DNA of 18,881 bases. Source: a virus. The notes under the pieces were generated by a model, which did not search any database, was not told the DNA's origin, and saw only the letters and a program-made list of their open reading frames with translations. The DNA lies in IMG/VR virus record IMGVR_UViG_3300045988_178209, positions 1 to 18,881 of that record; one strand, written 5' to 3'. Positions within the stretch are counted from its first letter, which is position 1. Each line of letters opens with the position of its first letter. Below are positions 1 to 18,881 of the stretch, piece after piece. Made by a program: the position numbers and the translations under genes.

Positions 1-164
1 TGGGTTGGTTGGTGTTGTGTGTGGTGGGGTGTTGTGGTTGTTGTCTTGGTTGTTTTTTTTTTGTTTTTTCTGTGTTTGTGTTTTTCGGGTTGTGTTGTTG
101 TTGTTTGTGTGGTATGCTGTAGTTACAAACTTCAAGGGAAGGAATGTAAATTGTTTGTTGCAAC
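1..164. repeat. Left inverted terminal repeat (ITR)
   Basis: nt 1-137 are the exact reverse complement of nt 18745-18881. Identity continues with 2 mismatches (pos 138 and 148) to ~164, then decays into diverged homology through the terminal ORFs. The first 113 nt have no A and only 3 C (pos 45, 70, 86). Confidence 0.95.
90..118 (+). promoter_or_regulatory. Putative early promoter embedded in the ITR
   Basis: TTGTGT (90-95), 17-nt spacer, TATGCT (113-118), with TG at 110-111 giving an extended -10 (TGgTATGCT). It is followed by SD AAGGGAAGGAA (134-144) and a TTG at 151. An identical copy faces inward at the right end. Confidence 0.35.
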
Positions 165-492
165 TTATTTTGCGGATGATGATCGTACTGTCACTGTGAG
201 GCCTGTTGCGGTTAAGGGTGATGTGGATTGGTCGTCTCTTTATGTTGCTGATGATGGTACTGGGTATGGTATGTGGCAACAGGATGGTGATGATAGGTGG
301 TTTATTGATGTTGTTCCTGTGAATGGCTATGATCTGTGGCATGATTCGAATGCGTTGAAAATTACTGGTGTTTATGGTCTTGATGGGGATGATTGGGAGG
401 CTTGTGCGAATGATTTTCTTGCGGATTATGGTTTTAGGCTTGGTCGGTTCGATGAGGTTAAGGGTGATCGGTTTGAGCTGGTTGCGTTGTGA
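151..492 (+). CDS. Terminal acidic protein (~113 aa), paralogue of the right-end ORF; function unknown
   Basis: The track ORF 19-492 starts inside the G/T-only ITR. A more credible start is TTG 151, 7 nt after the SD AAGGGAAGGAA. I counted 23 D/E against 9 K/R. The C-terminal block DDWEACANDFLADYGFRLGRFDEVKGDRFELV is nearly identical in the right-end ORF. Confidence 0.6.
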   Translation: MFVATYFADDDRTVTVRPVAVKGDVDWSSLYVADDGTGYGMWQQDGDDRWFIDVVPVNGYDLWHDSNALKITGVYGLDGDDWEACANDFLADYGFRLGRFDEVKGDRFELVAL

Positions 493-728
493 TGGGAATG
501 TTTGTAGGTAAGGAGTGTATTGTGGAATGTTTTAGTGTCAGTATCGTTCAGCATTCGGATGGTGCTGCTACGGTTTCGTGTGAGGGCTTGTTCGGGTGTT
601 CGTATCATGCTGTGGTGCGCGCGGATGATGCGGTGTTGTTTTCGGCTTGGCTTATTGGTTGGGCTCGTGACTGTGTGGCTTTTGAGCCTGTGTGTGTGAA
701 GGGGGGTGAGTGTCGTGTTGTGTGTTGA
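489..728 (+). CDS. Hypothetical early protein (Cys-rich, ~68-79 aa)
   Basis: This is the only long frame in this interval. GTG 489 overlaps the upstream TGA stop (GTGA). An alternative start is GTG 522, 6 nt after AAGGAG (510-515). ORFs in an A-poor region are weak evidence on their own. Confidence 0.4.
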   Translation: MMGMFVGKECIVECFSVSIVQHSDGAATVSCEGLFGCSYHAVVRADDAVLFSAWLIGWARDCVAFEPVCVKGGECRVVC

Positions 729-1017
729 TGATATTATGCAACATCATTTCTTTACTTTGGTTGATTCGAAGTCTTTGCGGAGGGTTGTGTTCGTGTGGAC
801 GTGGAAGCATCCGAAGTATCGTTCGCCGTATCATGAGGTTTTCGTGCTGGCTGATGGCCGTCTGTGGTTGGTGCTTACGGAGCATGATTTGCTGGACGCG
901 TATTTGGCGTGCAAGCGTGCTTGTGATGTTGGCTTGTCTTTGGAGGGGTTGGCGTGTTCCGAGTGGTATGATGAGTATGCTTCGTGGGAGCGTCGTATTC
1001 TTGAAGATTTTGATTGA
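715..1017 (+). CDS. Hypothetical early protein (~100 aa)
   Basis: The frame-1 translation has a balanced, protein-like composition (...KHPKYRSPYHEVFVLADGRLWLVLTEHDLLDAYLACKRA...WERRILEDFD). A G-rich SD (698-708) precedes GTG 715. Alternative starts are GTG 706 and ATG 736. The overlapping frame-2 ORF (710-1027) looks like junk. Confidence 0.5.
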   Translation: MLCVDDIMQHHFFTLVDSKSLRRVVFVWTWKHPKYRSPYHEVFVLADGRLWLVLTEHDLLDAYLACKRACDVGLSLEGLACSEWYDEYASWERRILEDFD

Positions 1018-1027
1018 AAGGATTGTT

Positions 1028-1255
1028 ATGAAATCGTCTGAGCGTGATGTGAAGATCGCTGTTTTTTATAGTCCTCATCTGGCTGGTGACGTGAAGGTTA
1101 AGTATTGTCGCCATCGGCAGATGCTGGTGTTGGAATATCATACGAAGGATGGGGTGATGGCGCATGATTATGATGTGACGAAACCGAGTGAGGTGAGGGA
1201 TATGGTGTTGGATGCCATTGGTATTGCTGGCGAATCTGTCGGGGGGAGGGTGTGA
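1028..1255 (+). CDS. Hypothetical early protein (75 aa)
   Basis: ATG 1028 follows GAAAGGA (1016-1022). This is the protein-like C-terminal part of track ORF 710-1255 (MKSSERDVKIAVFYSPHLAGDVKVKY...). Confidence 0.55.
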   Translation: MKSSERDVKIAVFYSPHLAGDVKVKYCRHRQMLVLEYHTKDGVMAHDYDVTKPSEVRDMVLDAIGIAGESVGGRV

Positions 1256-1467
1256 TGTATTTTCGTGGGTTTGTCCATTCGCTTACGTGTGGTGATTGTC
1301 CGGATGCGGAGGCGTATTGGCGGCTTCGTGCTTTCTGGTGTGGCTATCGTAATTGTCGGTTTGTCGCGCCGGCTCGCTGTCCTGATTGTCTGATTGCCGT
1401 CTGGCATGACATGTGGGTGTGTGGGCATGATTATAGTGTTGAGCAGTTTGAGACGTTGGGAGTATGA
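1255..1467 (+). CDS. Hypothetical Cys-rich (zinc-ribbon-like) early protein (70 aa)
   Basis: ATG 1255 overlaps the upstream TGA (TGATG) and follows GGGGGGAGGG (1241-1250). It contains paired CxxC motifs (CGDC ... CPDC) plus further Cys/His residues. Confidence 0.5.
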   Translation: MYFRGFVHSLTCGDCPDAEAYWRLRAFWCGYRNCRFVAPARCPDCLIAVWHDMWVCGHDYSVEQFETLGV

Positions 1468-1470
1468 GTC

Positions 1471-1644
1471 ATGTATGAGACTTTCGTTGTTTTGGCTTAT
1501 TTGCGTCATGATGTTAAGCCTGTTGAGATCGGCTATGCGTCGTCGTATGACGAGGCTTATAGGGTGGTCCGTGAGTGGGCTGGCAGGCCGGAGCGTGTGA
1601 AGGATGTTTCTTATTTCAGGATTGAGGGTCGGTATTATGTCTAG
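1471..1644 (+). CDS. Hypothetical small early protein (57 aa), not in the supplied ORF track
   Basis: Hand translation gives MYETFVVLAYLRHDVKPVEIGYASSYDEAYRVVREWAGRPERVKDVSYFRIEGRYYV*. GGGAG (1457-1461) lies 9 nt upstream of the ATG. The stop overlaps the next gene's start (ATGTCTAG). It looks more protein-like than the competing track ORF 1394-1600. Confidence 0.45.
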   Translation: MYETFVVLAYLRHDVKPVEIGYASSYDEAYRVVREWAGRPERVKDVSYFRIEGRYYV

Positions 1645-2164
1645 GGGCTTTGTTCGGGGTGATGGTCGGGTTCCGATCTATCGTATGCGCGATTTTGATG
1701 ATGCGATCATGGAGTCGCCGCGTGTTCGTAGGGCGTTGCATGGTCGTATGCGTAAGGCTGGTTTGATCCGTTATGATGAGGGGTATGGTGATTTTGAGAC
1801 TTGCTGTCGGGCTGTCGCCATGCTGTGCGAATTGTGGCGTGAGGGGGTGAATCCGTGGTTTGATCGGGCTGTTCTTATGGCTGTGTGTATTGCCGGCTCT
1901 TTGAGCCGGGGGGATGGTTTGCAGTCGGCGTTGTCTCGTACTTTTGATGTGGAGTATTTGGATGGTACGGTGGATCCTGCGAATCTGATCGCTTGGTGTG
2001 CGGTGTGTGCGGTCAAGGGGGGTACGAGCTTTGATTGCTGTGCTCTTTTTGACGATGTGCAGGCGCGTAATCTTATCATTGCGGTTTTCAAGAATTTTGA
2101 CAGACTTGATGTGACTCGTTATAATGATAAGGAATTGTCAAGGATTTTTGATCAGGGAAGGTAG
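1637..2164 (+). CDS. Hypothetical early protein (175 aa)
   Basis: ATG 1637 lies 8 nt after GAGGG (1624-1628), within track ORF 1604-2164. I recognise no family. Confidence 0.6.
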   Translation: MSRGFVRGDGRVPIYRMRDFDDAIMESPRVRRALHGRMRKAGLIRYDEGYGDFETCCRAVAMLCELWREGVNPWFDRAVLMAVCIAGSLSRGDGLQSALSRTFDVEYLDGTVDPANLIAWCAVCAVKGGTSFDCCALFDDVQARNLIIAVFKNFDRLDVTRYNDKELSRIFDQGR

Positions 2165-2170
2165 GGTATT

Positions 2171-2488
2171 ATGGCTCGAGTGAAGTCGGGAGTGTTCCGG
2201 ACTCGCGTGTATGCCGTGTTGAAGGGCATGGAATTGGTGGATGGCGATTTTATGCCGATCGAGCATGTCATTGATGGGCGTCTGAAGGATGTTCGGGCGT
2301 ATGCGGTCCGTGCCAAGAGGCTTTTTCCGAATTTCATTCCGCGTACTGTCGAGATCTTTTCGCAGAAGGTCACGATGGATGACGAGACTTTTTATAAGTA
2401 TGCGACTTTTGAGGAGCCGCAGAAGTGGAATCCGGAAGAACACGAAAGAAAACGACACGCCGAAATTGAAAACAACGACGGCATGTGA
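2171..2488 (+). CDS. Hypothetical early protein (105 aa, acidic C-terminus); positional analogue of phi29 p6
   Basis: ATG 2171 follows GGAAGGTAGGG. It lies directly upstream of the SSB-like gene, as gene 6 does in phi29, and is similar in size with an acidic tail. No sequence similarity was recognised, so the functional call is positional only. Confidence 0.6.
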   Translation: MARVKSGVFRTRVYAVLKGMELVDGDFMPIEHVIDGRLKDVRAYAVRAKRLFPNFIPRTVEIFSQKVTMDDETFYKYATFEEPQKWNPEEHERKRHAEIENNDGM

Positions 2489-2494
2489 TATAAA
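2465..2494 (+). promoter_or_regulatory. Putative promoter of the replication operon
   Basis: TTGAAA (2465-2470), 18-nt spacer, extended -10 TGaTATAAA (2486-2494). A small hairpin TAGGC-acaaaa-GCCTA (~2501-2516) and an A-rich leader follow. Confidence 0.45.
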
Positions 2495-2553
2495 AGATTT
2501 AGGCACAAAAGCCTAGCAAAAAACAACAAACAACTATACAAAAGGATATGACC

Positions 2554-2991
2554 ATGGAAAACAACAACAGCACCGCACTCGTCGCATTCAACACCGAAAA
2601 CACTGAACTCGGCACCGTCCAGCACTTCATCGACACCAGCACTCGCGAAGGTAAGATCAAGCTCTACTCCGCACTCCAGAACGCGGAAAAGCTGGATGAA
2701 CATCTGAACGAAACCCTGCTCATGTCGAACGCGGTCGCACAGGCCGTGCAGGTGACCGACGATCAGACCGGGGAAGTCTCCACTACAGTGCGCGTCATTA
2801 TCGTGACCGCCGACGGCAAGGCGTACGCGGCCACCTCCCCCACTCTAGCGGCCGGGCTGAACACCATGTTCGGCATCTTCGGTACTCCGAACACGTGGGA
2901 TGCCCCTCTCGCCATCAAGGTGGTGGAACGTCGGTCCCGCCGTGGCTTCAAATTCTTCAGCATTGAGCCGGTGGATGAAGAAACGAAGTGA
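2554..2991 (+). CDS. Single-stranded DNA-binding protein, phi29 p5-like
   Basis: From memory of phi29 p5: MENNNSTALVAFNTEN..EGKIKLY vs MENTNIVKATFDTETLEGQIKIF; VIIVTADGKAYAATS vs TTIFAADGSLYSAIS; IKVVERRSRRGFKFFSIE vs VKVVQGTSSKGNVFFSLQ. ATG 2554 has better SD spacing than ATG 2548. The gene sits upstream of the TP/DNAP pair, as in phi29. Confidence 0.7.
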   Translation: MENNNSTALVAFNTENTELGTVQHFIDTSTREGKIKLYSALQNAEKLDEHLNETLLMSNAVAQAVQVTDDQTGEVSTTVRVIIVTADGKAYAATSPTLAAGLNTMFGIFGTPNTWDAPLAIKVVERRSRRGFKFFSIEPVDEETK

Positions 2992-3025
2992 TCCTATCGT
3001 GATCACCAAGTAGAATCCAAGTATA

Positions 3026-3052
3026 GAGAGCACTCCTACGCGGGGTGCTCTC
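3026..3052 (+). other. Intergenic stem-loop (possible attenuator or RNA stabiliser)
   Basis: GAGAGCACTCC (3026-3036), loop tacgc, GGGGTGCTCTC (3042-3052), with one G-U pair. Only a weak T tract (cttatct) follows. Confidence 0.3.
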
Positions 3053-3074
3053 CTTATCTGAAAGGACGTGTCCC

Positions 3075-4040
3075 ATGTCACGCAAGCAGAAGCACGTCAA
3101 AGCACGGCAGGCCGCGCAAGCCCGTGCCGCCCGCAACATCAAACAACTCGGCACCTACTCGCACGCGAATCTCGCTAAAACCGCCGACCAACAGCTTGTC
3201 AACATTGCCAAAACGTTAGGTCAGGAGTGGGAGAGGCAGAAAGCGCAAACCATTGCCAAAGCGAAAGCCACCCCCTATCATGCGACCGCCGCCGAAAAGC
3301 CGACGAAAAAAGACTATATGATAGCCAGCCGTACTCCTATTCCGGACGCGCAGATCGCCGACGAGCCCATAGTGAAACGGCGTAAGCTCCTACGCCAACA
3401 GCAACGGAAGATCAACGCGGCTAGAAGGAAAATCAATGAATGGAATCGTGCGCAAGCCATGCCAAAAGTCAGCGTATACGACCAGCGTGTAGCCGAAATG
3501 ACCGGCACGACAGGCGACACGGGATTCAGTGGAAACATCATCGTCCCATCCAAGCTGACAGACTTCCTTCAAATGACCAATGTATTGGACGATGAGGCTT
3601 TCGTCCGTGCCCAGCTGAAAGGCGGTCATCGTAAGGAGATTCTCGACCAAATGCATGACGCCGCCAGAATCCTTGGATTAAGGACGGAACGCGACCGCAA
3701 GCACACTGTCGCAAAGAAGCGGAAGAGCGGGAGGTCGGAAGTTCTCTACGGTAAAGGCGAATGGCCGGTCTACATGACTAAAAGCCGGTATGACGCTTTC
3801 GGTAAGGTGATTGGCTCTTCGCTCGGCGCGAAACGACTTAAGCGATTCCGTAGTCTGACCGCGGCTCAGAAAAGGGCTTTCATTGAACAGACCGATGCTC
3901 CCCATATCGTGTTTGGCTGGGTCGACTATGATGAGACCCATCATACATTCAGGCCGATATTCAAGCAGGATACCGAAGGGTATGAGCGTGCACGTCGAAA
4001 TTTCGATCGGTGGATGACCGAAGCCCAAACACTCGCATAA
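3075..4040 (+). CDS. Candidate terminal protein (321 aa, very basic N-terminal half)
   Basis: It lies immediately upstream of the protein-primed DNAP, as phi29 gene 3 does. The N-terminus is K/R/Q-rich (MSRKQKHVKARQAAQARAARNIKQ..., KRRKLLRQQQRKINAARRKINEW). ATG 3075 follows GAAAGGA. I see no direct similarity to phi29 TP. Confidence 0.5.
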   Translation: MSRKQKHVKARQAAQARAARNIKQLGTYSHANLAKTADQQLVNIAKTLGQEWERQKAQTIAKAKATPYHATAAEKPTKKDYMIASRTPIPDAQIADEPIVKRRKLLRQQQRKINAARRKINEWNRAQAMPKVSVYDQRVAEMTGTTGDTGFSGNIIVPSKLTDFLQMTNVLDDEAFVRAQLKGGHRKEILDQMHDAARILGLRTERDRKHTVAKKRKSGRSEVLYGKGEWPVYMTKSRYDAFGKVIGSSLGAKRLKRFRSLTAAQKRAFIEQTDAPHIVFGWVDYDETHHTFRPIFKQDTEGYERARRNFDRWMTEAQTLA

Positions 4041-4067
4041 CGACAGGATCAAAGGAAGTTATCTATC

Positions 4068-5516
4068 ATGATCGCTGACAGACGTGTAGGCTTATGGTGT
4101 GCCGACAATATCATACGATTCACGGATGGCACTCAATTGCGTGACATCGTCGCACCCCACAGCCTCTTGGCTTCCATCATGACCAATGGAAGGCTCATTG
4201 TCTACATGACCGACCCGCACATGCTTGACCCCTTCATAGCGCATGTCGTGCATAGCCTGCCACGTGACACGCATCATGCCAATATGAGCTGGGACAGCAT
4301 CGTGTCGAATAAGGGTAAATTCTTCAGCTTCACCGTAACCCTTTCCAAGAGGAATTCGGTAAGGTTTTTTGACATTTCCAATCTTTTGAGGGAGAATTGC
4401 CGCGCGATCATGTCCGATAGCCAATTGCTCGACATTCTGTGCGAGTATGACAGGCGGGGATTGTGTAGGATCACGGCCGGAGCGGCCAGTATGGAAGCTT
4501 TCGTGTCAGGCGACTGGACATGGTATGCGGACAAATTCCCCCAATTTGGGTTGGAGGATAAGAAGTCACTCCACGACGCCTATATCGGCGGATTCATGCT
4601 GGCGTGTGAAGGTGCTTATGGCAGGGCTATCGACGTGGACTGTAATTCCATGTATCCGAGCATCCTACGAGATGAGTGGCTTCCTTACGGTGAGCCGGAA
4701 GCGTATGAGGGTGCCTACAAGCAGGATGACGATATGCCGTTGCATTGTGACGAAATGACGTTTCGCGCGGAGCTGAAGCCGGGTGGGTATCCTTTTCTGC
4801 TTGACGGCCGGAGTGTCTATGGGCTGAACAGGCTTTCCTCTACCCGTGGGTTTGTCTCTCGCGTGCTTACCGACATCGACCAGCGGTTGCTTTTCGAAAA
4901 TTATGATGTGACGGTCTACCGGTATGTGCGCGGGTGGAAATTCCGGCGCTCCAAAGGTTTGTTCCGATCCTTCGTTGACGAGTGGGGGTCGGTGAAGCAG
5001 AAGGCGACGGGTGCTAGACGGCGGATGGCTAAGCTGGTCATGAATGCTTTGGTCGGCAAGATGGCGAGTCTATCGAAGGATTCCGTCATGGTGCCTTATT
5101 CGGATGATGGCGTTACCGTGCGATGGGATGTGATGAGGCGTGACGGGTCGGGTCTGAAATCCGATTATCTGCCCGTACCCGTGTGGGTCAATGCGTACGC
5201 GCGCCGCAAGCTTATGGATGTCTGTCATGCCAATGCGGATAGATTGCTGTATGCGAATACGGATGGTTGCATTTTGTCTGGTTGGGATCCGCCAAAGTCG
5301 TGTGCTGTCCATGCGACCGAGCTTGGTCGGTGGAAGATCGCCGCACGATATGAGAGGCTTGCCGTTCTTGGTATGAATCGATATCAGGGGTGGCGTGATG
5401 ATGGTGAAGTCGATGTCTGCATGTCGGGCAGTCTTTTTGTCGAGCCTATACCTTACGAAAAATTCCGGCATGGCGAGCATGTGCATGATGCGTGCGGTAC
5501 GGTGGTCGTGCTATGA
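4068..5516 (+). CDS. Protein-primed family-B DNA polymerase (482 aa)
   Basis: Colinear with phi29 DNAP by eye: GLCRITAGAASMEAF vs GLDRMTAGSDSLKGF; VDCNSMYPS (motif A) vs DVNSLYPA; LPYGEPEAYEGAY vs LPYGEPIVFEGKY; GLFRSFVDEW vs GLFKDFIDKW; KLVMNALVGK (motif B); LLYANTDGCIL (motif C). Confidence 0.9.
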   Translation: MIADRRVGLWCADNIIRFTDGTQLRDIVAPHSLLASIMTNGRLIVYMTDPHMLDPFIAHVVHSLPRDTHHANMSWDSIVSNKGKFFSFTVTLSKRNSVRFFDISNLLRENCRAIMSDSQLLDILCEYDRRGLCRITAGAASMEAFVSGDWTWYADKFPQFGLEDKKSLHDAYIGGFMLACEGAYGRAIDVDCNSMYPSILRDEWLPYGEPEAYEGAYKQDDDMPLHCDEMTFRAELKPGGYPFLLDGRSVYGLNRLSSTRGFVSRVLTDIDQRLLFENYDVTVYRYVRGWKFRRSKGLFRSFVDEWGSVKQKATGARRRMAKLVMNALVGKMASLSKDSVMVPYSDDGVTVRWDVMRRDGSGLKSDYLPVPVWVNAYARRKLMDVCHANADRLLYANTDGCILSGWDPPKSCAVHATELGRWKIAARYERLAVLGMNRYQGWRDDGEVDVCMSGSLFVEPIPYEKFRHGEHVHDACGTVVVL

Positions 5517-5523
5517 TTGGAAT

Positions 5524-5695
5524 GTCCTTCGGAGCGTCGATTTTCGACTGGGAATGACGGTGATCGGATTACCACGGCTGAGAATGCCGCCGATTGCGGG
5601 TGGTCATCATCGTGGTGGTGGTGCCCTACGATTTCAAGGTGCGCTCTCATGGGATGTCGGACCCCGCGCGTGATTGCGCGGGGTCATTGCTTTTT
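5524..5695 (+). ncRNA. Candidate ~170-nt small RNA (pRNA-like?) or structured 3' UTR
   Basis: Extended -10-like TGcTATGAT (5509-5517) overlaps the DNAP stop. About 140 nt with no convincing ORF follow, ending in a strong intrinsic terminator (5660-5695). Short local helices are visible, e.g. GTCGA/TCGAC at 5536-5548. No fold was computed. Confidence 0.2.
5660..5695 (+). terminator. Rho-independent terminator ending the early/replication transcription unit
   Basis: GACCCCGCGC (5660-5669), loop gtgatt, GCGCGGGGTC (5676-5685), then attgcTTTTT. Confidence 0.8.
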
Positions 5696-5703
5696 CGGCG
5701 TTA

Positions 5704-5712
5704 TGATATAAT
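5704..5712 (+). promoter_or_regulatory. Putative late promoter (extended -10 TGATATAAT)
   Basis: A perfect TGnTATAAT sits 9 nt after the terminator T-run and 37 nt upstream of the scaffold gene ATG. The same 9-mer recurs at 15927. Confidence 0.5.
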
Positions 5713-5748
5713 TTTCAGTGAAAGTATCGTCCAGAGTAAGGAGATCGT

Positions 5749-6027
5749 ATGGATGATCCGAAGACTGACGGCGAGGAGTCCGTTACCTCGCCGCCGACCG
5801 AAGAAGCACAGTGCACCGAGACCGTAAATGATGAGGTCAAACCGGAGGAGGGTGAGCCGGATCCGAAGCGGGAGCCGGATGTGAGCGCCCGACTTGACAT
5901 GCTCGAAAAGGAGTTGGCCGCACTCAAAGCCATGATGGATACGCTTGGCTATGATGAGTCGACCGTGACCGATGATGACGGTGTCGGCGTCGGTGATGAC
6001 GATTCCATCGAAAATTTGTTCGACTAA
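5749..6027 (+). CDS. Scaffolding protein (phi29 gp7-like by position and composition)
   Basis: 92 aa, strongly acidic, with a central helical segment (ARLDMLEKELAALKAMMDTL). It lies directly upstream of the capsid gene. SD TAAGGAG is 5 nt before the ATG. Confidence 0.65.
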   Translation: MDDPKTDGEESVTSPPTEEAQCTETVNDEVKPEEGEPDPKREPDVSARLDMLEKELAALKAMMDTLGYDESTVTDDDGVGVGDDDSIENLFD

Positions 6028-6047
6028 CGTAGGAAGGATGAACACAT

Positions 6048-7763
6048 ATGTCCACTGTTCGACCATTGGCAGGCAAGGGTGATGTTGAGATCTTCAATGC
6101 GGTGAGATCCGCTACGTCACCGCAATTCCAGACTCGTATTCCGTCGGCGACGCAGGGCAATATTCGCAATGCCGTCGACACCATGCGCAATTTCCCGTAC
6201 CTGCGCGACGAATTCACCGGAGTCCTGATCCAGCGTCTCATCGGCCTCTACGTCCAGCACGCCGACTGGGATGACCCGCTGAAGCTGGTCGGTTCTCCTC
6301 GTACGCTCAAGCGCTACGGTTCCACGTACGAGCAGGCCGCAGTCGGCTTGGTCAAGGCACGCACCCGTAATTTCAATCAGGAGTATCTTGGCGATGACGT
6401 GTACGGTCGCTATAGTCTGCCGACCGCAAGCGCCTTCCATCCATTGACTTTCGATCACTATTATCCGGTCACCATTCCGGAGGATGCGCTTCTTACCGCT
6501 TTCGACGGCGAATCCGGCATGTCGGATTACATCAGTGAGATCATGAACGCTCCGATCCTGTCGGACCGTAATGATATGTATTTGATGAAGACGCAGACGT
6601 TTGCCGAGTACGCTCGTAAGGGTGGCTTCTACCGCGTGCATACGCCTGACGTCGGCAAGGCCGATTCGACCGAGGCGGATGCGAAGGGTCTGCTCCGTCT
6701 CATCCAACAGATGGCGAACGAACTCAAGGCATCGCCAATGAGCGCCATGCCGAAATATAACGCCATGAGCTGGGTGACTCCGTGGCGCGATTCGGAAGCG
6801 ATCCTTTTCGCCACCCCGCAGGTCATCGCCGCTTTGAATGTCGAGGCTCTCGCCGCCGCCTTCAATATCGACCGCGCCAATGTCCCGTACCGTATCATCC
6901 CCATTCCCGAGGATCTTTTCGGCATCGGCGGCAATGGTGGCAAGGTGCAGGCCGTCCTCACCACCGAAGATTTCTTCTTCTGCTGGGATGAGCTGTTGGA
7001 GACCACGAATTCTCCGGTCAATCCTATCGACGGCACTCGTAACATCTTCTACAAGCACCGCGGCTCCATCACGCCGAATCCTTTCGCCAATGCCATCCTC
7101 TTCTGGACGGGTGAAGGGTCGACCGAATCGGTGACCTTGCCGGATACGCTCACGACCTCCAAGCCGGAATTCGTCCTGCGTGTCAAGAAGTACGGTCAGC
7201 CTGCGGTCACTCCTCAGAACGTGTCGCGCGGCGCTCTCGTCCAAGTGGAGGCGACCATTGCAAGCGCCAACAAGACTGCCGCATCCTTCCAGCCGGTCGG
7301 CGTCAAGTATGCGATCGAGGGGGCGACCTCACAGTATACCGGCATCGACAATGACGGTATTCTGCGCTGTGGCTTGGATGAGACCGCCGAAAGCCTCAAG
7401 GTCACGGCACAGGCGACCTACATTGACCCGGCCACTCCGGAAATCGACCAGACGCTTTCCGCGGCACTCGACGTGCCTGTCGTCGGCACGTGGGTCGGTG
7501 GCATCAAGATCGGCGCACTGTCCGGTCTGAAGGTCGACGGCCCGAATACCGTCAAGGCTTCCGAATCCGTCAAGCTGACCGCCACCGCGGTCAAGACGGA
7601 TGGTTCGAAGCAGGACGTCAGCAATCTCGCTGATTGGAGCGTGGATGCGCATGCCAAGGTCGACAAGACGGGTAAGGTTACCGGTGAGGATGCAGGCAGT
7701 GCGAAGGTGACCGTCAAATTCGCGGGAGTCACTGCGGATAAGACCATCACCGTTTCCGCCTGA
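6048..7763 (+). CDS. Major capsid protein, phi29 gp8-like, with C-terminal Big_2 Ig-like domain
   Basis: N-terminus EIFNAVRSATSPQFQTRIPSATQGNI...LIQRLIGLYV...DDPLK vs phi29 gp8 [26 protein letters not shown]...LVDRIGLVV...NNPLK. The C-terminus VKASESVKLTATAVKTDGSKQDVSNLADWSV...GKVTGEDAGSAKVTVKFAGVTADKTITV is a typical Big_2 repeat. Confidence 0.9.
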   Translation: MSTVRPLAGKGDVEIFNAVRSATSPQFQTRIPSATQGNIRNAVDTMRNFPYLRDEFTGVLIQRLIGLYVQHADWDDPLKLVGSPRTLKRYGSTYEQAAVGLVKARTRNFNQEYLGDDVYGRYSLPTASAFHPLTFDHYYPVTIPEDALLTAFDGESGMSDYISEIMNAPILSDRNDMYLMKTQTFAEYARKGGFYRVHTPDVGKADSTEADAKGLLRLIQQMANELKASPMSAMPKYNAMSWVTPWRDSEAILFATPQVIAALNVEALAAAFNIDRANVPYRIIPIPEDLFGIGGNGGKVQAVLTTEDFFFCWDELLETTNSPVNPIDGTRNIFYKHRGSITPNPFANAILFWTGEGSTESVTLPDTLTTSKPEFVLRVKKYGQPAVTPQNVSRGALVQVEATIASANKTAASFQPVGVKYAIEGATSQYTGIDNDGILRCGLDETAESLKVTAQATYIDPATPEIDQTLSAALDVPVVGTWVGGIKIGALSGLKVDGPNTVKASESVKLTATAVKTDGSKQDVSNLADWSVDAHAKVDKTGKVTGEDAGSAKVTVKFAGVTADKTITVSA

Positions 7764-7786
7764 TCCCATGATAATCGGGTAGAATG

Positions 7787-7818
7787 GGTGCAGTAGCGAT
7801 ACTGCACCTATTTTTTTT
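7787..7818 (+). terminator. Rho-independent terminator/attenuator after the capsid gene
   Basis: GGTGCAGTA (7787-7795), loop gcga, TACTGCACC (7800-7808), then TA + T8 (7811-7818). Confidence 0.8.
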
Positions 7819-7828
7819 GGAGGATATG

Positions 7829-10060
7829 ATGAGTGCGAATGATCTGCCGATTAATTTCAGCTACATGAAGTGGACGCCGAATACAAGATTCAAGCTATGT
7901 AATGTTCCGTGGGACATGGGCTATCGTGACATCGTCACATGGGATAGGCAGAGGCAGGAAGCATATTTCAATCAGCTGGAGGGTATCGAATTCACCGACT
8001 GCACCATGGCCAAATATGGTCTGCCCGTACGACTGCCGATACCTTTCGCGCAGGCATCGCAGTATAATTATTTGGTCGCCGTGAATGATTACGATTTCGA
8101 CACGCCGCGCTCATGGTATTATTTCATCCAATCCTGCGATTATGTGAATGCTCATACTACACAGCTCAATATTCAATTGGACGTGTGGCAGTCATTCCAG
8201 CATGATGTCACCTTCGGTACCGCCTATGTGGAAAGAGGTCATGTCGGCGTAGCCAATGAGCGGCAGATGGACGATTACGGCCGTGGGACGCTCGACCTGC
8301 CGGAAGGATTGGATACCGGTAAGACTTTGGTCAATGCGACCACGGCATACATGCCGCTTGCCACGGTGGAAGGCGGGCGTGTGGCTTGTGGTGTGATCAT
8401 CGCCTCCACTACCGATCTTACCGTGGATCCGGGAGATCTGACCAATCCGAAGACGACGACGGCCGGCGGTAGCATCTTCGAAAATCAGTATAATGGCACT
8501 CAGCTTATCTATCTGACCAATGCGGAGGATCTTCAGGTGGTATTTTCGCTGGGGGCGCGATATCCGTGGGTGTCACAGGGTATTTGCGGCATTTACGCGG
8601 TGCCGCGCCTGCCGGAAGGACTGTTACGCAATCAGGGTGACATGACGAAACTGTACGGAAAGACCCTGTCGGGATTGAAAGGCAAGATCATCCACCTGTA
8701 TCAGAATACGGTCCACGGTCAGGACAGGTATTCGGATATTATGACGATGAAGGATTTCCGCGACAATTTCCACATTCCCGAACGCTATAAGCATTTGAAG
8801 AAGCTGCTGACCGCCCCTTATGCGATCATCCAATGCTCCTGTCTGAATGGCACCAGCATCGAATATTCGCCGGAGCAGATACCATCCAAGGATCTGACGA
8901 TCCGCGAAGCATGGCAGTATGCGCCTCCACAGCCGCGGCTCAATTTCTGGATCCCGAATTATGCCGCCCAATATGCGGACCAATGGTCGCCCCTGCCGGA
9001 TGGTATGGGATTGCCTTTCGATAAGGGTGATATGCTGGACGCGGCTTTTGGCGTCACGAATTTTCCGACTTTCATGGCCGTCAATAATGGATCCGCTCTC
9101 TCATTGGCCAATTCCGCCTATATGAGGCAGTATGCCCAAAAGTCGGCTGACTGGTCGTATCAGAAGACGCGGATGGGCATCAATAACGCCTACTCCCAAG
9201 CCCAATTGGGAGCCCAGTATGCGAGCGAAGCCAATCGGCTCGGCACGTCCAATCGTAATTCCATGAATGCGATCAATAATCAGGCCGCGCAAATGGCCAC
9301 GGATCTGACGTTGAAGAATCTCGGATTCGATAATCAGATGGCCCAACTCAACACGATCGGGTCGGGAGCTCTCGGGGCCGTCGGCTCCCTTGCGACGGGT
9401 AATGTCGGTGGGGCGGCCGGAGCTGTGGCGGGAGCCGCGATCGGCGCATGGACGAACCAACAGACATATGACAATAACGTTTCGAGCGCGAACCAACAGC
9501 TCGCGAACACCCAAGCCACCAATAACGCTTCAACATCCCAAGCCAATGCCTACAGTCTTGCGCAGACGAATCTGAGCAACGGGCAGTCCCTGCAGTTCGC
9601 GGACATGAACCGTCAGCTGGCGCAGGCTACCGCGCAAGGCGACTATGCGAATGTGATCGCGGGCATTGACGCGCAGGTACAGCAGACACAGACCACGCCG
9701 CCGACCACGTCCGGCGCATTGGGGGGCGATGCCTTCAATCTGGCCAATGGGATCATCGGAGTATGCGTGAAATTCCGTCGCCTATCCGACGCGGCACTGC
9801 ATACGATCGGCGAATACTGGCTACGATACGGCTACTACGTCCAGCGGTTCATGACCATGCCGGCAGGTCTTATGGCCATGAGCAATTTCACGTATTGGAA
9901 GGTCCACGAATTGTATTTGAGAAGCTCGACATGTCCGGAAGAATACCGTCTGACCATCAAAGGCATTTTCGAAAGCGGTGTGACGGTGTGGAAGGATCCC
10001 GACAGGATCGGTGTCACCGACTATGCGGACAATGAGCCTCTGGCGGGTATTTCATACTGA
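7829..10060 (+). CDS. Tail knob / distal tube protein, phi29 gp9-like (743 aa)
   Basis: N-terminal region LCNVPWDMGYRD...VRLPIPFAQASQYNYLVAVNDYDFDTPRSWYYFIQSCDYVNAHTTQLNIQLDVWQSF vs phi29 gp9 ILADVPFSNDYKN...[55 protein letters not shown]. GGAGG (7819-7823) favours ATG 7829 over 7826. Confidence 0.8.
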   Translation: MSANDLPINFSYMKWTPNTRFKLCNVPWDMGYRDIVTWDRQRQEAYFNQLEGIEFTDCTMAKYGLPVRLPIPFAQASQYNYLVAVNDYDFDTPRSWYYFIQSCDYVNAHTTQLNIQLDVWQSFQHDVTFGTAYVERGHVGVANERQMDDYGRGTLDLPEGLDTGKTLVNATTAYMPLATVEGGRVACGVIIASTTDLTVDPGDLTNPKTTTAGGSIFENQYNGTQLIYLTNAEDLQVVFSLGARYPWVSQGICGIYAVPRLPEGLLRNQGDMTKLYGKTLSGLKGKIIHLYQNTVHGQDRYSDIMTMKDFRDNFHIPERYKHLKKLLTAPYAIIQCSCLNGTSIEYSPEQIPSKDLTIREAWQYAPPQPRLNFWIPNYAAQYADQWSPLPDGMGLPFDKGDMLDAAFGVTNFPTFMAVNNGSALSLANSAYMRQYAQKSADWSYQKTRMGINNAYSQAQLGAQYASEANRLGTSNRNSMNAINNQAAQMATDLTLKNLGFDNQMAQLNTIGSGALGAVGSLATGNVGGAAGAVAGAAIGAWTNQQTYDNNVSSANQQLANTQATNNASTSQANAYSLAQTNLSNGQSLQFADMNRQLAQATAQGDYANVIAGIDAQVQQTQTTPPTTSGALGGDAFNLANGIIGVCVKFRRLSDAALHTIGEYWLRYGYYVQRFMTMPAGLMAMSNFTYWKVHELYLRSSTCPEEYRLTIKGIFESGVTVWKDPDRIGVTDYADNEPLAGISY

Positions 10061-10063
10061 CGT

Positions 10064-10098
10064 ATAATGGAGTGAGCGATACAATCTCACTCCATTAT
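10064..10098 (+). promoter_or_regulatory. 13-bp perfect inverted repeat overlapping a TATAAT box
   Basis: ATAATGGAGTGAG (10064-10076), loop cgatacaat, CTCACTCCATTAT (10086-10098), with no T-run after it. TATAAT is at 10063-10068. This could be a promoter, an operator or an RNA processing site. Confidence 0.35.
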
Positions 10099-10117
10099 CT
10101 ATAGTAGGACGGTGATC

Positions 10118-11056
10118 ATGAGCAGACGCAACAATGCGCGCAAGGCTACGTATTGGGATAATCAGAGCGTACTCGGGAGCATGTGGGGCAATCTCAATCT
10201 TCCCGAGATGCGCCAATCCCTGCGTATCAATCAATACATGAAATTGATCGAAATGCTGGCCGTATCCCGCTTCAAATGGGTCAATCTCCCTCCATCCATC
10301 GACGAGAGGTATCTTGAATTGACCCTCTTCGAGAACGGGTTGGCCCTGTTTTTCCCCGATAAGCGTAAGGGTATCCATCGTTTCATGGTCACTTCCGGCA
10401 ATATCGGCGGCGTGAACAATTATAACAATCCGACGTCGTTTCAGCCGGTCGCCACCGGGTATTCGCACCCGCAGATCGGATCGAAGGAGTGCGTGCCTAT
10501 CTGGGATAATCAATTGAGATGCACGATGGTCGACGTGATGTGGAATTATGCGATACGATTGGCCATCGCCGACCGGGCTTTGGACGTGAATCTGGACAAT
10601 ATCAGCGTGCCTTTGATCATCGCCACGTCCGAGACCAACAAGCTCACCGCGCAGAATCTCATGAAGGCGCGTGAGGATGGAGACCCGTGCATCTACACAT
10701 ACGATAGCGCGGACATTTCCGGAATGTTCCAGACCTTCCCGAACGTCACTCCCTTTCTGGCGGATAAGATCATCACCACGAAGACGCAGGTGTGGAATGA
10801 GCTTGTCAATTATCTGGGAATCGACAATTCGACCACCGAGAAGAAGGAGCGCCTGCTCGAATCGGAGGTCACGGCCGGCAATTCGCGTACGAATGTCTTT
10901 CGCCTGAGCTATCTCAAGTCGAGACAGCAAGCGTGCGATACGATCAATCGACTGTGGCCTCAAATGGCCGATTCGGGCAGGCCGATCGGCGTCGAATGGA
11001 ATGATACGACGTCCGGCGGACTATTGGACGTTGATGGCACCAAGGAGGAGGAGTGA
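10118..11056 (+). CDS. Portal / head-tail connector, phi29 gp10-like
   Basis: FKWVNLPPSIDERYLE vs phi29 FEWENLPPTINPSFLE; WNELVNYLGIDNSTTEKKERLLESEV vs [26 protein letters not shown]; similar length (~312 aa). Confidence 0.9.
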   Translation: MSRRNNARKATYWDNQSVLGSMWGNLNLPEMRQSLRINQYMKLIEMLAVSRFKWVNLPPSIDERYLELTLFENGLALFFPDKRKGIHRFMVTSGNIGGVNNYNNPTSFQPVATGYSHPQIGSKECVPIWDNQLRCTMVDVMWNYAIRLAIADRALDVNLDNISVPLIIATSETNKLTAQNLMKAREDGDPCIYTYDSADISGMFQTFPNVTPFLADKIITTKTQVWNELVNYLGIDNSTTEKKERLLESEVTAGNSRTNVFRLSYLKSRQQACDTINRLWPQMADSGRPIGVEWNDTTSGGLLDVDGTKEEE

Positions 11057-11057
11057 C

Positions 11058-11870
11058 ATGGTACAGGATTTGAGCATGTATGCCGTCAGGGACGATATGG
11101 CGGATTATACGCTGACTTTAGGCAATCTGATCGCACGGGGATTTGACACGGATGAAAAACTGCACTTGAGCGCCGTGTATTATCCGATCTTCGATGAATC
11201 ATACCGTGCGAAGCTCAATGAGAAGATCGTAGCGCATTACGCTCTACGTGAGATCGGTTCGGAAACGCCGCAAATGTTCGTATTCTACTTGGGTCGTACC
11301 ATGCGCGAGCAGATGGACTATTTCAACCAATTATATCTGTCGGCCCAACGCAAGTTCGACCCTTTCATCACGTCCGATGTCCGGCAGGAAATGGACTCTA
11401 CCAGCGTCAACGAGTCGAGCGGCAGGTCTTCCGGCACGCAGTCGAATGAATCCACCGCCCACAGCACGTCCGATACCAAGGCGGACAATTCGTCGATGAC
11501 TTTTAATTCGGAGTTTCCTCAAACCCGTATCGACGATTTCAGGAAATTCGCGACCAGTGCCTCGCAGACCGATTCGACCGGCGATACGCATACGAGTACG
11601 TCGCAGGACAGTACGGCCACTGCGACCAGTCAAAGCAACACCGATTACGCGCATTCGTCGGACAAGGGCAACAGCGTGTCGCATACGCTCGGTACCAGTG
11701 GTTCGCAGTCGCAGCTGTTGCAGGATTGGCGGAATACCATGCTCAACATTGACATGATGGTCATCGATTCGCTCGAGGACCTCTTCATGGGCGTGTGGGG
11801 CAGTGGCGACAATATGACCAACGTACCACAGCTTTACAGCACGTCACTCGCCTACAATCTAGGCCATTAG
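11058..11870 (+). CDS. Lower collar protein, phi29 gp11-like
   Basis: It directly follows the connector gene. YYPIFDESYRAKLNEKIVAHYALREIGSETPQMFVFYL...YFNQLY matches the F/YREIGxET...YNQ(L/M)Y pattern I recall from Picovirinae lower-collar proteins. It has an S/T/Q-rich central region. SD AAGGAGGAGGAG precedes ATG 11058. Confidence 0.65.
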   Translation: MVQDLSMYAVRDDMADYTLTLGNLIARGFDTDEKLHLSAVYYPIFDESYRAKLNEKIVAHYALREIGSETPQMFVFYLGRTMREQMDYFNQLYLSAQRKFDPFITSDVRQEMDSTSVNESSGRSSGTQSNESTAHSTSDTKADNSSMTFNSEFPQTRIDDFRKFATSASQTDSTGDTHTSTSQDSTATATSQSNTDYAHSSDKGNSVSHTLGTSGSQSQLLQDWRNTMLNIDMMVIDSLEDLFMGVWGSGDNMTNVPQLYSTSLAYNLGH

Positions 11871-11876
11871 AGTATA

Positions 11877-12500: not shown

Positions 12501-12518
12501 CAGGAAGGATTACGGCAA

Positions 12519-12872: not shown

Positions 12873-13060
12873 TGATCATGATGGACAGTCAGCAGACCAC
12901 GCCCGTGGACTCCACCGCATACGATGCGACGAGACATTGGGGGTTGCCGCTTTATAATGATGCGACGCCAATGGACATGCGCGACGGCTACAATCGCGCC
13001 ATGCGCATGATAGACCAGATTCTCACCCAACTACAAACCCAGATTCGAGAAAAGGATTAA
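12872..13060 (+). CDS. Small protein consisting almost only of the shared fibre N-terminal module (62 aa)
   Basis: The ATG overlaps the upstream TGA (TGATG). It contains WGLPLYNDATPMDMRDGYNRAMRMIDQILTQLQT, matching the same motif. Confidence 0.55.
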   Translation: MIMMDSQQTTPVDSTAYDATRHWGLPLYNDATPMDMRDGYNRAMRMIDQILTQLQTQIREKD

Positions 13061-13066
13061 CATAAA

Positions 13067-14533: not shown

Positions 14534-14602
14534 TCACGGGAGTCGGACCATGATTCGTATCGAAAGGGGTGAGAGCGCCGTGAAGTAAGGTAGGCTCGAA
14601 GG

Positions 14603-18366: not shown

Positions 18367-18399
18367 AAAAGCCCCTAGGAAATCAACCTAGGGGCTTTT
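18367..18399. terminator. Bidirectional rho-independent terminator between convergent genes
   Basis: AAAAGCCCCTAGG (18367-18379), loop aaatcaa, CCTAGGGGCTTTT (18387-18399). The A-run and T-run flanks allow termination in both directions. Confidence 0.85.
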
Positions 18400-18410
18400 A
18401 CTATCACCAT

Positions 18411-18731
18411 TCAAACCTCCACCAACTCATACCGGTCACCCAACACCTCATCAAAAGCACCAAGCCTAAAACCATAATCAGCAAGAAAATCATTCGCACA
18501 AGCCTCCCACTCATCCTCATCCTCACCAAACACACCCTCAACACGCTCAGCACAACAATGAACACACTCAGACTCAGAATCAATATACCACCGTCCATCA
18601 AAATCATACCACATACCCTTACCAGTAACCGCATCAAGAATAAGCAAAACATCATACGAATAACCCGCACACACAGCAACCGGCTTAACAGTAACCCTCT
18701 CACCAGTAGCGACATCAGTTGCAACAAACAA
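18411..18731 (-). CDS. Terminal acidic protein (~106 aa), paralogue of the left-end ORF; function unknown
   Basis: This is the mirror of 151-492. TTG (complement of 18729-18731) is preceded by AAGGAAAGGAA. I counted 24 D/E against 7 K/R. The shared C-terminus is DEWEACANDFLADYGFRLGAFDEVLGDRYELV. The track ORF extends into the ITR (to 18863), which I regard as an artefact. Confidence 0.6.
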   Translation of the reverse strand: MFVATDVATGERVTVKPVAVCAGYSYDVLLILDAVTGKGMWYDFDGRWYIDSESECVHCCAERVEGVFGEDEDEWEACANDFLADYGFRLGAFDEVLGDRYELVEV

Positions 18732-18881
18732 TTCACATTCCTTTCCTTGAAGTTTGTAACTACAGCATACCACACAAACAACAACAACACAACCCGAAAA
18801 ACACAAACACAGAAAAAACAAAAAAAAAACAACCAAGACAACAACCACAACACCCCACCACACACAACACCAACCAACCCA
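18718..18881. repeat. Right inverted terminal repeat (ITR)
   Basis: Reverse complement of 1-164: exact over 18745-18881, with 2 mismatches further in. Confidence 0.95.
18764..18792 (-). promoter_or_regulatory. Right-end copy of the ITR-embedded putative promoter
   Basis: Exact reverse complement of 90-118 (inside the perfect 137-bp ITR), facing inward toward the terminal ORF. Confidence 0.35.

What the first reader, a model, noticed from the sequence alone, without database searches (positions are those of the whole stretch)
151..492. Diverged acidic paralogues at both genome ends, each behind an ITR-embedded promoter-like element
ORFs 151-492 (+) and 18411-18731 (-) share the ITR-encoded leader, SD and TTG start, the first residues (LFVAT...) and a nearly identical C-terminal block (D[DE]WEACANDFLADYGFRLG.FDEV.GDR[FY]ELV). 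Their central ~60 residues have diverged. Both are strongly acidic (net about -14 and -17 by my count) and aromatic-rich. That composition is typical of DNA-mimic anti-defence proteins such as Ocr/ArdA or the phi29 UDG inhibitor p56. Whichever end enters the cell first would express one copy immediately. A UDG inhibitor would also fit a genome whose skew suggests heavy cytosine deamination. The function is pure hypothesis.
Basis: partly seen in the sequence, partly recalled or inferred. Interest (0 to 1): 0.65.

Follow-up and report, generated by a model that had tools for sequence, protein, structure and literature searches.

The report
Acidic first gene at both phage ends
A small Bifidobacterium phage carries two diverged copies of an unannotated, very acidic early protein, one just inside each genome end behind a conserved promoter in the terminal repeat; this is a good but untested candidate for a new host-defence blocker.

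Summary
The window is a complete 18.9-kb phi29-like (protein-primed) Bifidobacterium podophage with 165-nt inverted terminal repeats (ITRs; 163/165 identical). ORF A (151-492, +) and ORF B (18411-18731, -) are paralogues: 55% identical over their full length, net charge -14 and -17.

They belong to an unannotated family of about 106 aa (mean net charge -15). AlphaFold models are confident (pLDDT 93 and 85). Neither model matches Ocr, ArdA, p56, Ugi or anything else in PDB or BFVD.

Relatives conserve a TGnTAnnnT extended -10 element, leader and Shine-Dalgarno site upstream of the gene, which supports an ITR promoter. Transcription is untested.

The ITR boundary moves through this gene in related genomes: codon 2, codon 5 (here), about codon 99, or past the stop. 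A 51-nt tract that is 50/51 identical explains the shared C-terminal block and looks like gene conversion.

The family also occurs in siphophage-like, temperate and large phage contigs, near ArdC, a C5-methylase, ERF or integrase genes. So it is a mobile early accessory gene, not part of the protein-primed replication machinery.

An anti-defence or DNA-mimic role is plausible but unproven. A specific UDG-inhibitor role has no direct support.

The parts
1..165 (+). Left inverted terminal repeat. The outer 113 nt contain only G and T plus 3 C on the 5'-ending strand. The inner part carries the promoter-like element, leader, SD and the first 5 codons of ORF A.
   Evidence: 163/165 identical to the reverse complement of the right end, then divergence. 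Composition.
18717..18881 (-). Right inverted terminal repeat, the mirror of 1-165. It carries the same promoter-like element, leader, SD and the first 5 codons of ORF B.
110..118 (+). Extended -10 promoter-like element TGgTATGCT (TG at 110-111, hexamer at 113-118). The mirror copy lies at 18764-18772 on the - strand.
   Evidence: TGnTAnnnT is kept in 13 of 16 full-length upstream regions at relatives' ends (11 podophage contigs plus the BD811P2 and BP1 records; BD811P2's two ends are one ITR sequence). The inner hexamer positions and the flanks vary. Pattern match. It did not reach the generic -35/-10 threshold. Transcription not tested.
134..143 (+). Shine-Dalgarno region AAGGGAAGGA, 7 nt upstream of the TTG start. 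An ATG-TAA start-stop pair at 144-149 lies in the spacer.
   Evidence: Read from the sequence. The homologous position in relatives is AAGGGAAGGAAAATAAA-ATG.
151..492 (+). ORF A: 113 aa, TTG start, net charge -14, 'A-type' member of the acidic family. It is the first gene of the left early operon, and its stop overlaps the start of the next ORF (489-728).
   Evidence: AlphaFold pLDDT 85. Orthologues are 81-86% identical at the left ends of other podophage contigs.
18411..18731 (-). ORF B: 106 aa, TTG start, net charge -17, 'B-type' member. It forms a single-gene cassette between the ITR promoter and a terminator.
   Evidence: AlphaFold pLDDT 93.5, pTM 0.84. Orthologues lie at the right ends of BD811P1-3 and of contig L013.
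394..444 (+). Recombination or gene-conversion tract in ORF A (codons for WEACANDFLADYGFRLG), 50/51 nt identical to the tract in ORF B.
18459..18509 (-). Matching tract in ORF B. It carries A-type sequence not found in other B-type genes.
   Evidence: The motif ACANDFL otherwise occurs only in the A-type protein P0028 (P0036 has the close variant SCVNDFL).
18367..18399 (-). Terminator-like hairpin (AAAAGCCCCTAGG-loop-CCTAGGGGCTTTT) between ORF B and the convergent amidase gene. It looks bidirectional.
   Evidence: Scan hit. The stem is conserved with variable loops in BD811P1-3, BP1 (twice), L013, L014 and L060.

Best explanation
ORF A and ORF B are two subtypes of one unannotated family of small (about 106 aa), strongly acidic, compact, mostly beta proteins. 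The family circulates as an early accessory gene among Bifidobacterium-associated phages.

In this group of phi29-like podophages, the ITR carries an extended -10 promoter, a short unstructured leader, an SD and the start codon. Whatever gene lies just inside the ITR is therefore the first gene to be transcribed by host RNA polymerase from that end.

The ITR boundary moves by end-to-end homogenisation and short conversion tracts. As a result the gene can sit at the left end, the right end or both ends, as two subtypes (here) or as identical copies.

Inferred function: the protein is a stoichiometric decoy that binds and blocks a host protein acting on incoming phage DNA. The most likely target is a restriction or other DNA-targeting defence nuclease. 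Its conserved negative surface charge would mediate this (DNA-mimic-like action with a new fold).

Shown: paralogy, ITR anatomy, family conservation and acidity, orphan fold, accessory distribution, moving ITR boundary.
Inferred: promoter activity, early timing, target and mechanism.
For: Paralogy and charge.

Genome type: about 79% nt identity to Bifidobacterium phages BD811P1-3 over the core. SSB, holin and amidase are recognised in the window. Type-B polymerase, phi29-type capsid and connector are recognised in 88-90% identical relatives.

Family: 39 close homologues. Only 78 representatives with E <= 0.001 among 1.84 billion proteins. Mean net charge is -14.8 over 67 full-length members. 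Within the window only the scaffold-position protein is more acidic.

Real folded protein: AlphaFold pLDDT 93.5 and 85.4, same topology for both.

Promoter, leader and SD are conserved upstream of the gene across diverged genomes. The same ITR element also drives unrelated first genes in BD811P2 (left end) and BP1.

Moving ITR boundary: more than 55 nt, to codon 2, in BD811P2. 165 nt, to codon 5, here. To about codon 99 in contig 036216. 621 nt including the whole gene in contig 145004. Conversion tract.

Accessory, host-directed character:
- Absent from the related phage BP1.
- Present in siphophage-like contigs next to a C5 DNA methylase and ERF.
- Present in a temperate phage with a serine recombinase.
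- Next to ArdC-N/M78 anti-restriction-type genes in 4 loci, and near tyrosine integrases in 8 loci.
- Present in contigs over 200 kb that encode topoisomerase, DnaB-like, primase and ligase genes.
- BP1's own ITR-proximal first gene has 74-82% identical homologues immediately downstream of this family's gene in at least 14 larger-phage loci. The terminal slot is therefore filled from a shared pool of early accessory genes.

Faster protein evolution than core genes: dN/dS is 0.28-0.81, against 0.06-0.16 for SSB, terminal protein, polymerase, capsid and ATPase.

Background: acidic DNA mimics are a recognised broad-spectrum anti-defence class (bioRxiv 10.1101/2025.06.06.658234).
Against: No sequence or fold similarity to any known anti-defence protein or DNA mimic.

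I had no model coordinates, so I could not examine surface charge pattern or oligomeric state.

Acidity alone is weak evidence. Many phage early proteins, scaffolds and antitoxins are acidic.

Gene neighbourhoods are heterogeneous. Most neighbours have no annotation, and ArdC or methylase adjacency is seen in a minority of loci.

The raised dN/dS may be partly an artefact of the extreme G/T codon bias at the ends, which depresses dS.

The promoter has only a weak -35 (TTGTGT) and failed the generic scan. No transcript data were available.
Confidence: 0.4

Rival explanations
1. It takes over the host rather than blocking a defence system. The acidic protein would inhibit or redirect another host nucleic-acid-binding protein. 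Candidates are a recombination nuclease (RecBCD/AdnAB type, like lambda Gam or P22 Abc), a nucleoid protein, or RNA polymerase (like T7 Gp2).
For: In several siphophage-like loci the gene lies two genes upstream of ERF in the same operon. This resembles the P22 abc-erf arrangement (own knowledge). Conserved acidity. Early position.
Against: Terminal-protein-capped podophage genomes should not need an end-nuclease inhibitor (own knowledge of phi29 biology). No fold match to Gam, gp5.9 or Gp2 in PDB. ERF adjacency is not general.
Confidence: 0.2
2. It is a uracil-DNA glycosylase inhibitor doing the job of phi29 p56. It would protect uracil-containing single-stranded replication intermediates.
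For: At four-fold degenerate sites the 5'-ending strand is strongly G+T-rich over about 2.5 kb at each end, whatever the gene orientation. This fits deamination of displaced single strands. The protein is small and acidic.
Against: No fold or sequence similarity to p56, Ugi or SAUGI, all of which are in PDB. The family is also common in phages with other replication modes, and some of those carry a dUTPase. The skew supplies a possible need, not a function.
Confidence: 0.08
3. It helps DNA entry or replication specifically in protein-primed genomes. ORF B would be the positional analogue of phi29 gene 17 or 16.7, or the protein would organise the replication origin as p6 does.
For: ORF B occupies the same map position as the phi29 right-end early operon: read inward from the right end, after the packaging ATPase and lysis genes. 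In phi29 an early protein, p17, is needed to pull in the rest of the genome (PMC2771126).
Against: The family occurs in siphophage-like, temperate and very large phage contigs that lack a protein-primed polymerase, and there it is not at genome ends. It is absent from the related podophage BP1. It sits at the left, right or both ends interchangeably. A strongly acidic protein is unlikely to bind DNA.
Confidence: 0.07
4. One copy is a redundant passenger of ITR expansion and is decaying. The pair has no adaptive meaning.
For: ITR boundaries clearly drift through the gene. Both copies have a TTG start where every relative shown has ATG.
Against: Both ORFs are intact. Both keep all nine invariant family residues and most of the near-invariant ones (ORF A departs at three of the 18 near-invariant columns). 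Both give confident models. Each subtype has its own orthologues elsewhere.
Confidence: 0.05

Closest known systems
T7 Ocr (gp0.3) and other DNA-mimic anti-restriction proteins (ArdA, Arn)
   Same: Small, very acidic (about -15 net charge in about 110 aa). Encoded as the first gene to enter and be expressed from the leading genome end. An accessory gene rather than a core gene.
   Different: No Pfam hit and no Foldseek match. The predicted fold is a beta-rich domain plus one helix and a hairpin, not a helical dimer. The activity is untested.
phi29 p56 (UDG inhibitor) and PBS2 Ugi
   Same: Small acidic early proteins of a phage; p56 belongs to a protein-primed phage. The host genome shows a deamination-like terminal skew.
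   Different: Twice the size of p56. No structural or sequence similarity. The family is not restricted to protein-primed phages.
phi29 right-end early operon (genes 17, 16.7)
   Same: ORF B has the same map position and orientation: the first gene read inward from the right end. The phi29 two-step entry needs early p17 (PMC2771126).
   Different: No sequence similarity. The family is found outside protein-primed phages. In this clade the gene is equally often at the left end.
Terminal-repeat-encoded early genes of phage T5 (first-step-transfer region) and diploid ITR genes of poxviruses
   Same: Host-interaction genes lie inside or against terminal repeats, so they can be present at both ends. 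The repeat boundary shifts between relatives, which changes which genes are present twice (own knowledge; T5 first-step transfer is mentioned in PMC2771126).
   Different: Here the repeats are short inverted repeats (165-621 nt) of a terminal-protein genome. The boundary falls inside a single gene, so the two copies can be chimeric subtypes.

Membership tests
Ocr (T7 gp0.3) family | Sequence match to the Ocr Pfam model, and an all-helical dimer fold that mimics bent B-DNA | tested here: not met
   No Pfam hit at E <= 10. No PDB Foldseek match with E <= 0.001, best TMq 0.33. The model has about 9-10 strands and one long helix.
ArdA anti-restriction family | Sequence match to the ArdA Pfam model, and an elongated three-domain fold of about 165 aa | tested here: not met
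   No Pfam or NCBIfam hit. No PDB Foldseek match. The length is 106-113 aa.
UDG inhibitors (p56, Ugi, SAUGI) | Fold or sequence similarity to a solved UDG inhibitor | tested here: not met
   PDB sequence search with the family profile gave no relevant hit. Foldseek against PDB found none.
UDG inhibitors (p56, Ugi, SAUGI) | Binds and inhibits uracil-DNA glycosylase | not testable with these tools
   Needs a biochemical assay or complex prediction.
DNA-mimic proteins (functional class) | High net negative charge, conserved across homologues | tested here: met
   -14 and -17 here. Mean -14.8 over 67 full-length family members.
DNA-mimic proteins (functional class) | Surface array of carboxylates spaced like a DNA phosphate backbone, and competitive binding to a DNA-binding protein | not testable with these tools
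Extended -10 sigma-70-type promoter | TGn immediately upstream of a TAnnnT hexamer at a fixed distance from the gene, conserved among relatives | tested here: met
   TGgTATGCT at 110-118. TGnTAnnnT is kept in 13 of 16 full-length upstream regions at relatives' ends, while the surrounding sequence varies.
Extended -10 sigma-70-type promoter | Transcript 5' ends mapped just downstream | not testable with these tools
phi29-like protein-primed podophage with ITRs | Inverted terminal repeats, a type-B protein-primed polymerase, phi29-type SSB, capsid, connector and packaging ATPase | tested here: met
   ITR. Phi29_Phage_SSB in the window. DNA_pol_B_2, Phi29_MCP, Phage_connector and Podovirus_Gp16 in 88-90% identical relatives. 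The terminal protein is only inferred (331-aa basic protein at 3045-4040).
phi29 p17 / p16.7 / p6 | Sequence similarity, and restriction to protein-primed phages | tested here: not met
   No Pfam or PHROG hit. The family is present in phages with ERF, DnaC-like, terminase or integrase genes.

The most novel reading that the evidence does not exclude
The family is a new-fold, DNA-mimic-like anti-defence protein shared widely among Bifidobacterium phages (podophages, siphophages and very large phages). In the protein-primed podophages, ITR boundary migration and gene conversion are the means by which the phage places this first-expressed counter-defence gene at either or both ends. Protection then does not depend on which end enters first, and two subtypes could cover two targets.
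Probability: 0.3. Interest if true: 0.7.

Novelty: new variant of a known kind. Interest (0 to 1): 0.52.

Why it matters
Bifidobacteria are hard to transform and to infect, largely because of restriction and other defence systems. Very few of their lytic phages are known. A conserved, first-expressed, acidic protein shared by unrelated Bifidobacterium phages is a concrete candidate for a new counter-defence protein. If that proves true, it could help genetic work in these bacteria.

Separately, the series of genomes in which the ITR boundary sits at codon 2, codon 5, about codon 99 or beyond the stop of one gene shows clearly how terminal repeats of protein-primed genomes grow, shrink and homogenise. 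It also shows how a promoter inside the repeat turns the adjacent slot into a swappable early-expression site.

Tried and rejected
- Pfam, PHROGs, NCBIfam and PADLOC scans of A, B and relatives gave nothing.
- A PDB sequence search with the family profile gave only chance-level hits.
- Foldseek with both models against PDB, and with the ORF B model against BFVD, found no match with E <= 0.001. The weak FGF/beta-trefoil hits have TMq below 0.3 and rmsd around 10 A, so I rejected them.
- In the deep profile search, hits to very long repeat proteins (DUF11, FG-GAP, Big_2) match only a roughly 35-residue beta segment. I treated these as spurious.
- A scan of GTDB species-representative genomes found no relatives. 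Host assignment therefore rests on the BD811P and BP1 phages and on shared genes.
- The GenBank phage collection holds the family only in BD811P1-3.
- Rfam found no RNA family in the window, including no pRNA at the left end where phi29 has one. The leader (120-200) and the 5517-5748 gap show no significant folding.
- A motif search for the upstream CGGGYGTGTYG box failed in the window because of a one-base indel.
- A supposed second family copy in L007 (697-1017) and in L008 (8204-8527) turned out not to be family members.
- Literature searches found no description of this gene in the BD811P or BP1 papers or in the phi29-like phage review.
- RNA or DNA read evidence was unavailable.

Full report
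**What the window is**

The 18,881-bp window is a complete linear genome of a phi29-like podophage. Its core (1459-17986) is about 79% identical at the nucleotide level to Bifidobacterium dentium phages BD811P1-3, and partly similar to B. pseudocatenulatum phage BP1.

The window encodes a phi29-type SSB, a holin and an amidase. Relatives that are 88-90% identical carry Pfam-recognised type-B polymerase, phi29-type capsid, connector and packaging ATPase at the same positions.

All genes read rightward except the last one, ORF B.

**Checking the observation**

- The two ends are inverted repeats: 137 nt perfect and 163/165 nt identical, with an abrupt loss of identity from position 166.
- ORF A (151-492, +, 113 aa) and ORF B (18411-18731, -, 106 aa) both begin with TTG at position 151 from their end.
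- They are 55% identical over their whole length (E = 6e-36).
- Net charges are -14 and -17, pI is about 4.05, and there are 18 and 15 aromatic residues.

**The genes are real**

- The family has 39 close homologues.
- It has 78 cluster representatives with E <= 0.001 among 1.84 billion proteins. None is named beyond 'hypothetical'.
- Nine residues are invariant (P17, W48, G69, W75, L83, Y86, G87, L90, L103 in ORF B numbering).
- AlphaFold models are confident: ORF B has pLDDT 93.5 and pTM 0.84; ORF A has pLDDT 85.4.
- Both models share one topology: a seven-strand N-terminal part, one helix, and a C-terminal beta hairpin.

**What it is not**

- Pfam, PHROGs, NCBIfam, PADLOC and a PDB sequence search with the family profile give nothing.
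- Foldseek finds no match with E <= 0.001 in PDB or in BFVD. The best query-normalised TM-score (TMq) is 0.33-0.40.
- Ocr, ArdA, p56, Ugi and SAUGI structures are in PDB. Membership in those families was therefore tested and not met.
- By these searches the fold is an orphan.

**The ITR promoter**

A generic -35/-10 scan did not report it. Comparison of ends is informative, however.

- Upstream of the terminal gene the consensus is TGnTAnnnT, then GTAGTTAYCAACTTCAAGGGAAGGAAAATAAA, then ATG.
- The extended -10 itself (TGnTAnnnT) is kept in 13 of 16 full-length upstream regions: 11 podophage contigs plus the BD811P2 and BP1 records. BD811P2's two ends are one ITR sequence.
- These genomes have polymerases only 35-90% identical to the window's.
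- The invariant positions are exactly those expected of an extended -10 element (TG, T1, A2, T6). The inner hexamer positions and the G/T-rich flank vary.
- In BD811P2 the 55 nt of ITR present in the record contain this element, the SD, the ATG and two further bases. There it drives two unrelated first genes at the two ends. BP1 uses it for yet another gene.
- The leader shows no significant structure.
- ORF B is followed by a hairpin terminator whose stem is conserved and whose loop varies among relatives. The right end is thus a promoter-gene-terminator cassette.
- ORF A's stop overlaps the next ORF's start, so it heads the left early operon.
- Promoter activity itself remains inferred.

**How the pair arose**

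Each copy has closer orthologues elsewhere than its partner in the window.
- A-type genes, 81-86% identical, lie at the left ends of other contigs.
- A B-type gene, 78% identical, lies at a right end.

In this clade the family gene is the first gene at one of three places:
- the left end (15 loci);
- the right end (6 loci, including BD811P1-3);
- both ends.

The ITR boundary lies at different points of the gene in different genomes:
- codon 2 in BD811P2;
- codon 5 here;
- about codon 99 in contig 036216;
- beyond the stop in contig 145004, whose 621-nt ITR contains two identical copies.

The shared C-terminal block is a 51-nt tract (394-444 and 18459-18509) that is 50/51 identical. Inside it, ORF B differs from its closest orthologue at 13/51 positions, against 28/270 outside (Fisher p = 0.006). 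Its peptide motif ACANDFL is otherwise seen only in A-type proteins. The simplest reading is end-to-end homogenisation plus a short A-to-B conversion tract.

Both copies also share a TTG start where every relative shown has ATG. This again points to homogenisation.

**Distribution and what it says about function**

The family is not tied to protein-primed replication. It occurs in the following settings.
- About 28-42-kb siphophage-like contigs with terminase, portal, ERF, SSB and a DnaC-like loader. In one it lies directly after a C5 DNA methylase, with a distant second paralogue 4 kb away.
- A temperate phage with a serine recombinase.
- Loci near tyrosine integrases (8 loci) and next to ArdC-N/M78 anti-restriction-type genes (4 loci).
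- Contigs over 200 kb that encode topoisomerase, DnaB-like, primase and ligase genes.

It is absent from the related podophage BP1. BP1's ITR-proximal first gene (gp26) has 74-82% identical homologues immediately downstream of the family gene in at least 14 larger-phage loci. The slot behind the ITR promoter is therefore filled from a pool of early accessory genes exchanged among unrelated phages of the same hosts.

Strong acidity is conserved (mean -14.8).

dN/dS is 0.28-0.81, against 0.06-0.16 for core genes. The caveat is that the extreme codon skew at the ends lowers dS.

**Mechanism**

The best-supported reading is an early, dispensable, host-directed protein that acts stoichiometrically through its acidic surface on a host nucleic-acid-binding protein. 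A restriction or other DNA-targeting defence system is the most likely target. The reasons are its first-in position, its neighbours in other phages, and the known breadth of acidic DNA mimics (bioRxiv 10.1101/2025.06.06.658234). I put this at about 0.4.

Rivals:
- Another host target, such as a recombination nuclease, nucleoid protein or RNA polymerase: 0.2.
- A UDG inhibitor: 0.08.
- A phi29 p17-like entry or replication helper: 0.07. The distribution outside protein-primed phages argues against it. For the role of p17 see PMC2771126.
- A decaying passenger copy: 0.05.

About 0.2 is left unassigned for functions not listed here.

**The skew argument**

At four-fold degenerate sites the + strand is G/T-rich up to about 2.5 kb (GC skew +0.3 to +0.8, AT skew -0.5 to -0.9). 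It is A/C-rich from about 16 kb onward (GC skew -0.4 to -0.9, AT skew +0.6 to +0.9). This includes the rightward ATPase, holin and amidase genes.

The bias therefore follows position, not transcription direction. This fits damage to the displaced 5'-ending strand during strand-displacement replication. It makes a UDG problem conceivable, but it is not evidence that this protein solves it.

**Verdict**

- The anti-defence idea is plausible and now better framed, but untested.
- Membership in Ocr, ArdA or p56 is excluded.
- The most solid new result is the anatomy: an ITR that carries a promoter and start codon, a swappable first-gene slot, and an ITR boundary that moves through the gene.

Noticed in passing
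window 1-2500 and 16000-18881: At four-fold degenerate codon positions the 5'-ending strand at each end is strongly G+T-rich (skews up to 0.8-0.9). This holds whatever the gene orientation; the middle of the genome is nearly unskewed. It looks like a replication-linked (displaced-strand) mutation bias, but it stops rather abruptly instead of fading linearly.
   Followed up: partly
window 1-113 (and the mirror 18769-18881): The outer ITR contains 67 T, 43 G, 3 C and no A on the 5'-ending strand, with short TGG/TTGG-type repeats at the very tip. Relatives have equally G/T-only but different sequences there.
   Followed up: partly
window 151-153 and 18729-18731; 144-149: Both copies start with TTG where every relative shown has ATG. 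An ATG-TAA (left) or ATG-TGA (right) start-stop pair sits in the SD-to-start spacer.
   Followed up: partly
L003 (OP172660) and L004 (OP172658) ends; L002 (PQ571273) 1-530: The GenBank records of BD811P1 and BD811P3 lack the ITRs and begin inside the terminal genes. Their annotated terminal CDS (264 nt) is therefore 5'-truncated. The BP1 record shows an ITR-like promoter end on one side only.
   Followed up: partly
L002 19041-19316 (BP1 gp26); L008 1545-1817, L021 10381-10725 and others: BP1's ITR-proximal first gene is 74-82% identical in protein to a gene that lies directly downstream of the acidic family gene in at least 14 larger-phage loci. This indicates recent exchange of early accessory genes between unrelated phages.
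   Followed up: partly
L001 51-236 (BD811P2 left-end first gene): The unrelated 61-aa first gene at the left end of BD811P1-3 is also very acidic (MNINIDTAQDY...). Different acidic proteins thus occupy the same ITR-driven slot.
   Followed up: no
window 18367-18399; L001, L002 (two sites), L003, L004, L013, L014, L060: A hairpin with a conserved stem (AAAGCCCCTAGG / CCTAGGGGCTTT) and a variable loop follows the terminal gene in many relatives. In BP1 it closes the first gene at both ends.
   Followed up: partly
window 5749-6027: A 92-aa protein with net charge -23 lies just upstream of the major capsid gene, the position of a scaffold protein. It is the only window protein more acidic than A and B.
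   Followed up: no
window 3045-4040: A 331-aa, very basic protein (net +29, pI 10.3) lies directly upstream of the polymerase and has no Pfam or PHROG hit. By position it is the likely terminal protein.
   Followed up: no
window 5660-5717: A strong terminator hairpin (5660-5685) is followed by a -10-like TATGATATAAT (5699-5717 pattern match). This may be the early/late boundary and late promoter. The 232-nt gap has no Rfam match and only weak folding (z = -1.8).
   Followed up: partly
L071 8001-8327 and 12235-12570; L042, L046: Some siphophage-like contigs also carry two family members, about 33% identical and 4 kb apart in the same early region. Paralogue pairs are therefore not peculiar to ITR genomes.
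   Followed up: no
L070 70-190: Downstream of the left-end copy in contig 036216 there is a terminator and then a second copy of the TTTTCGGGCGTGTCG ... TGTATATT promoter-like motif. The same early promoter type seems to be reused inside the genome.
   Followed up: no
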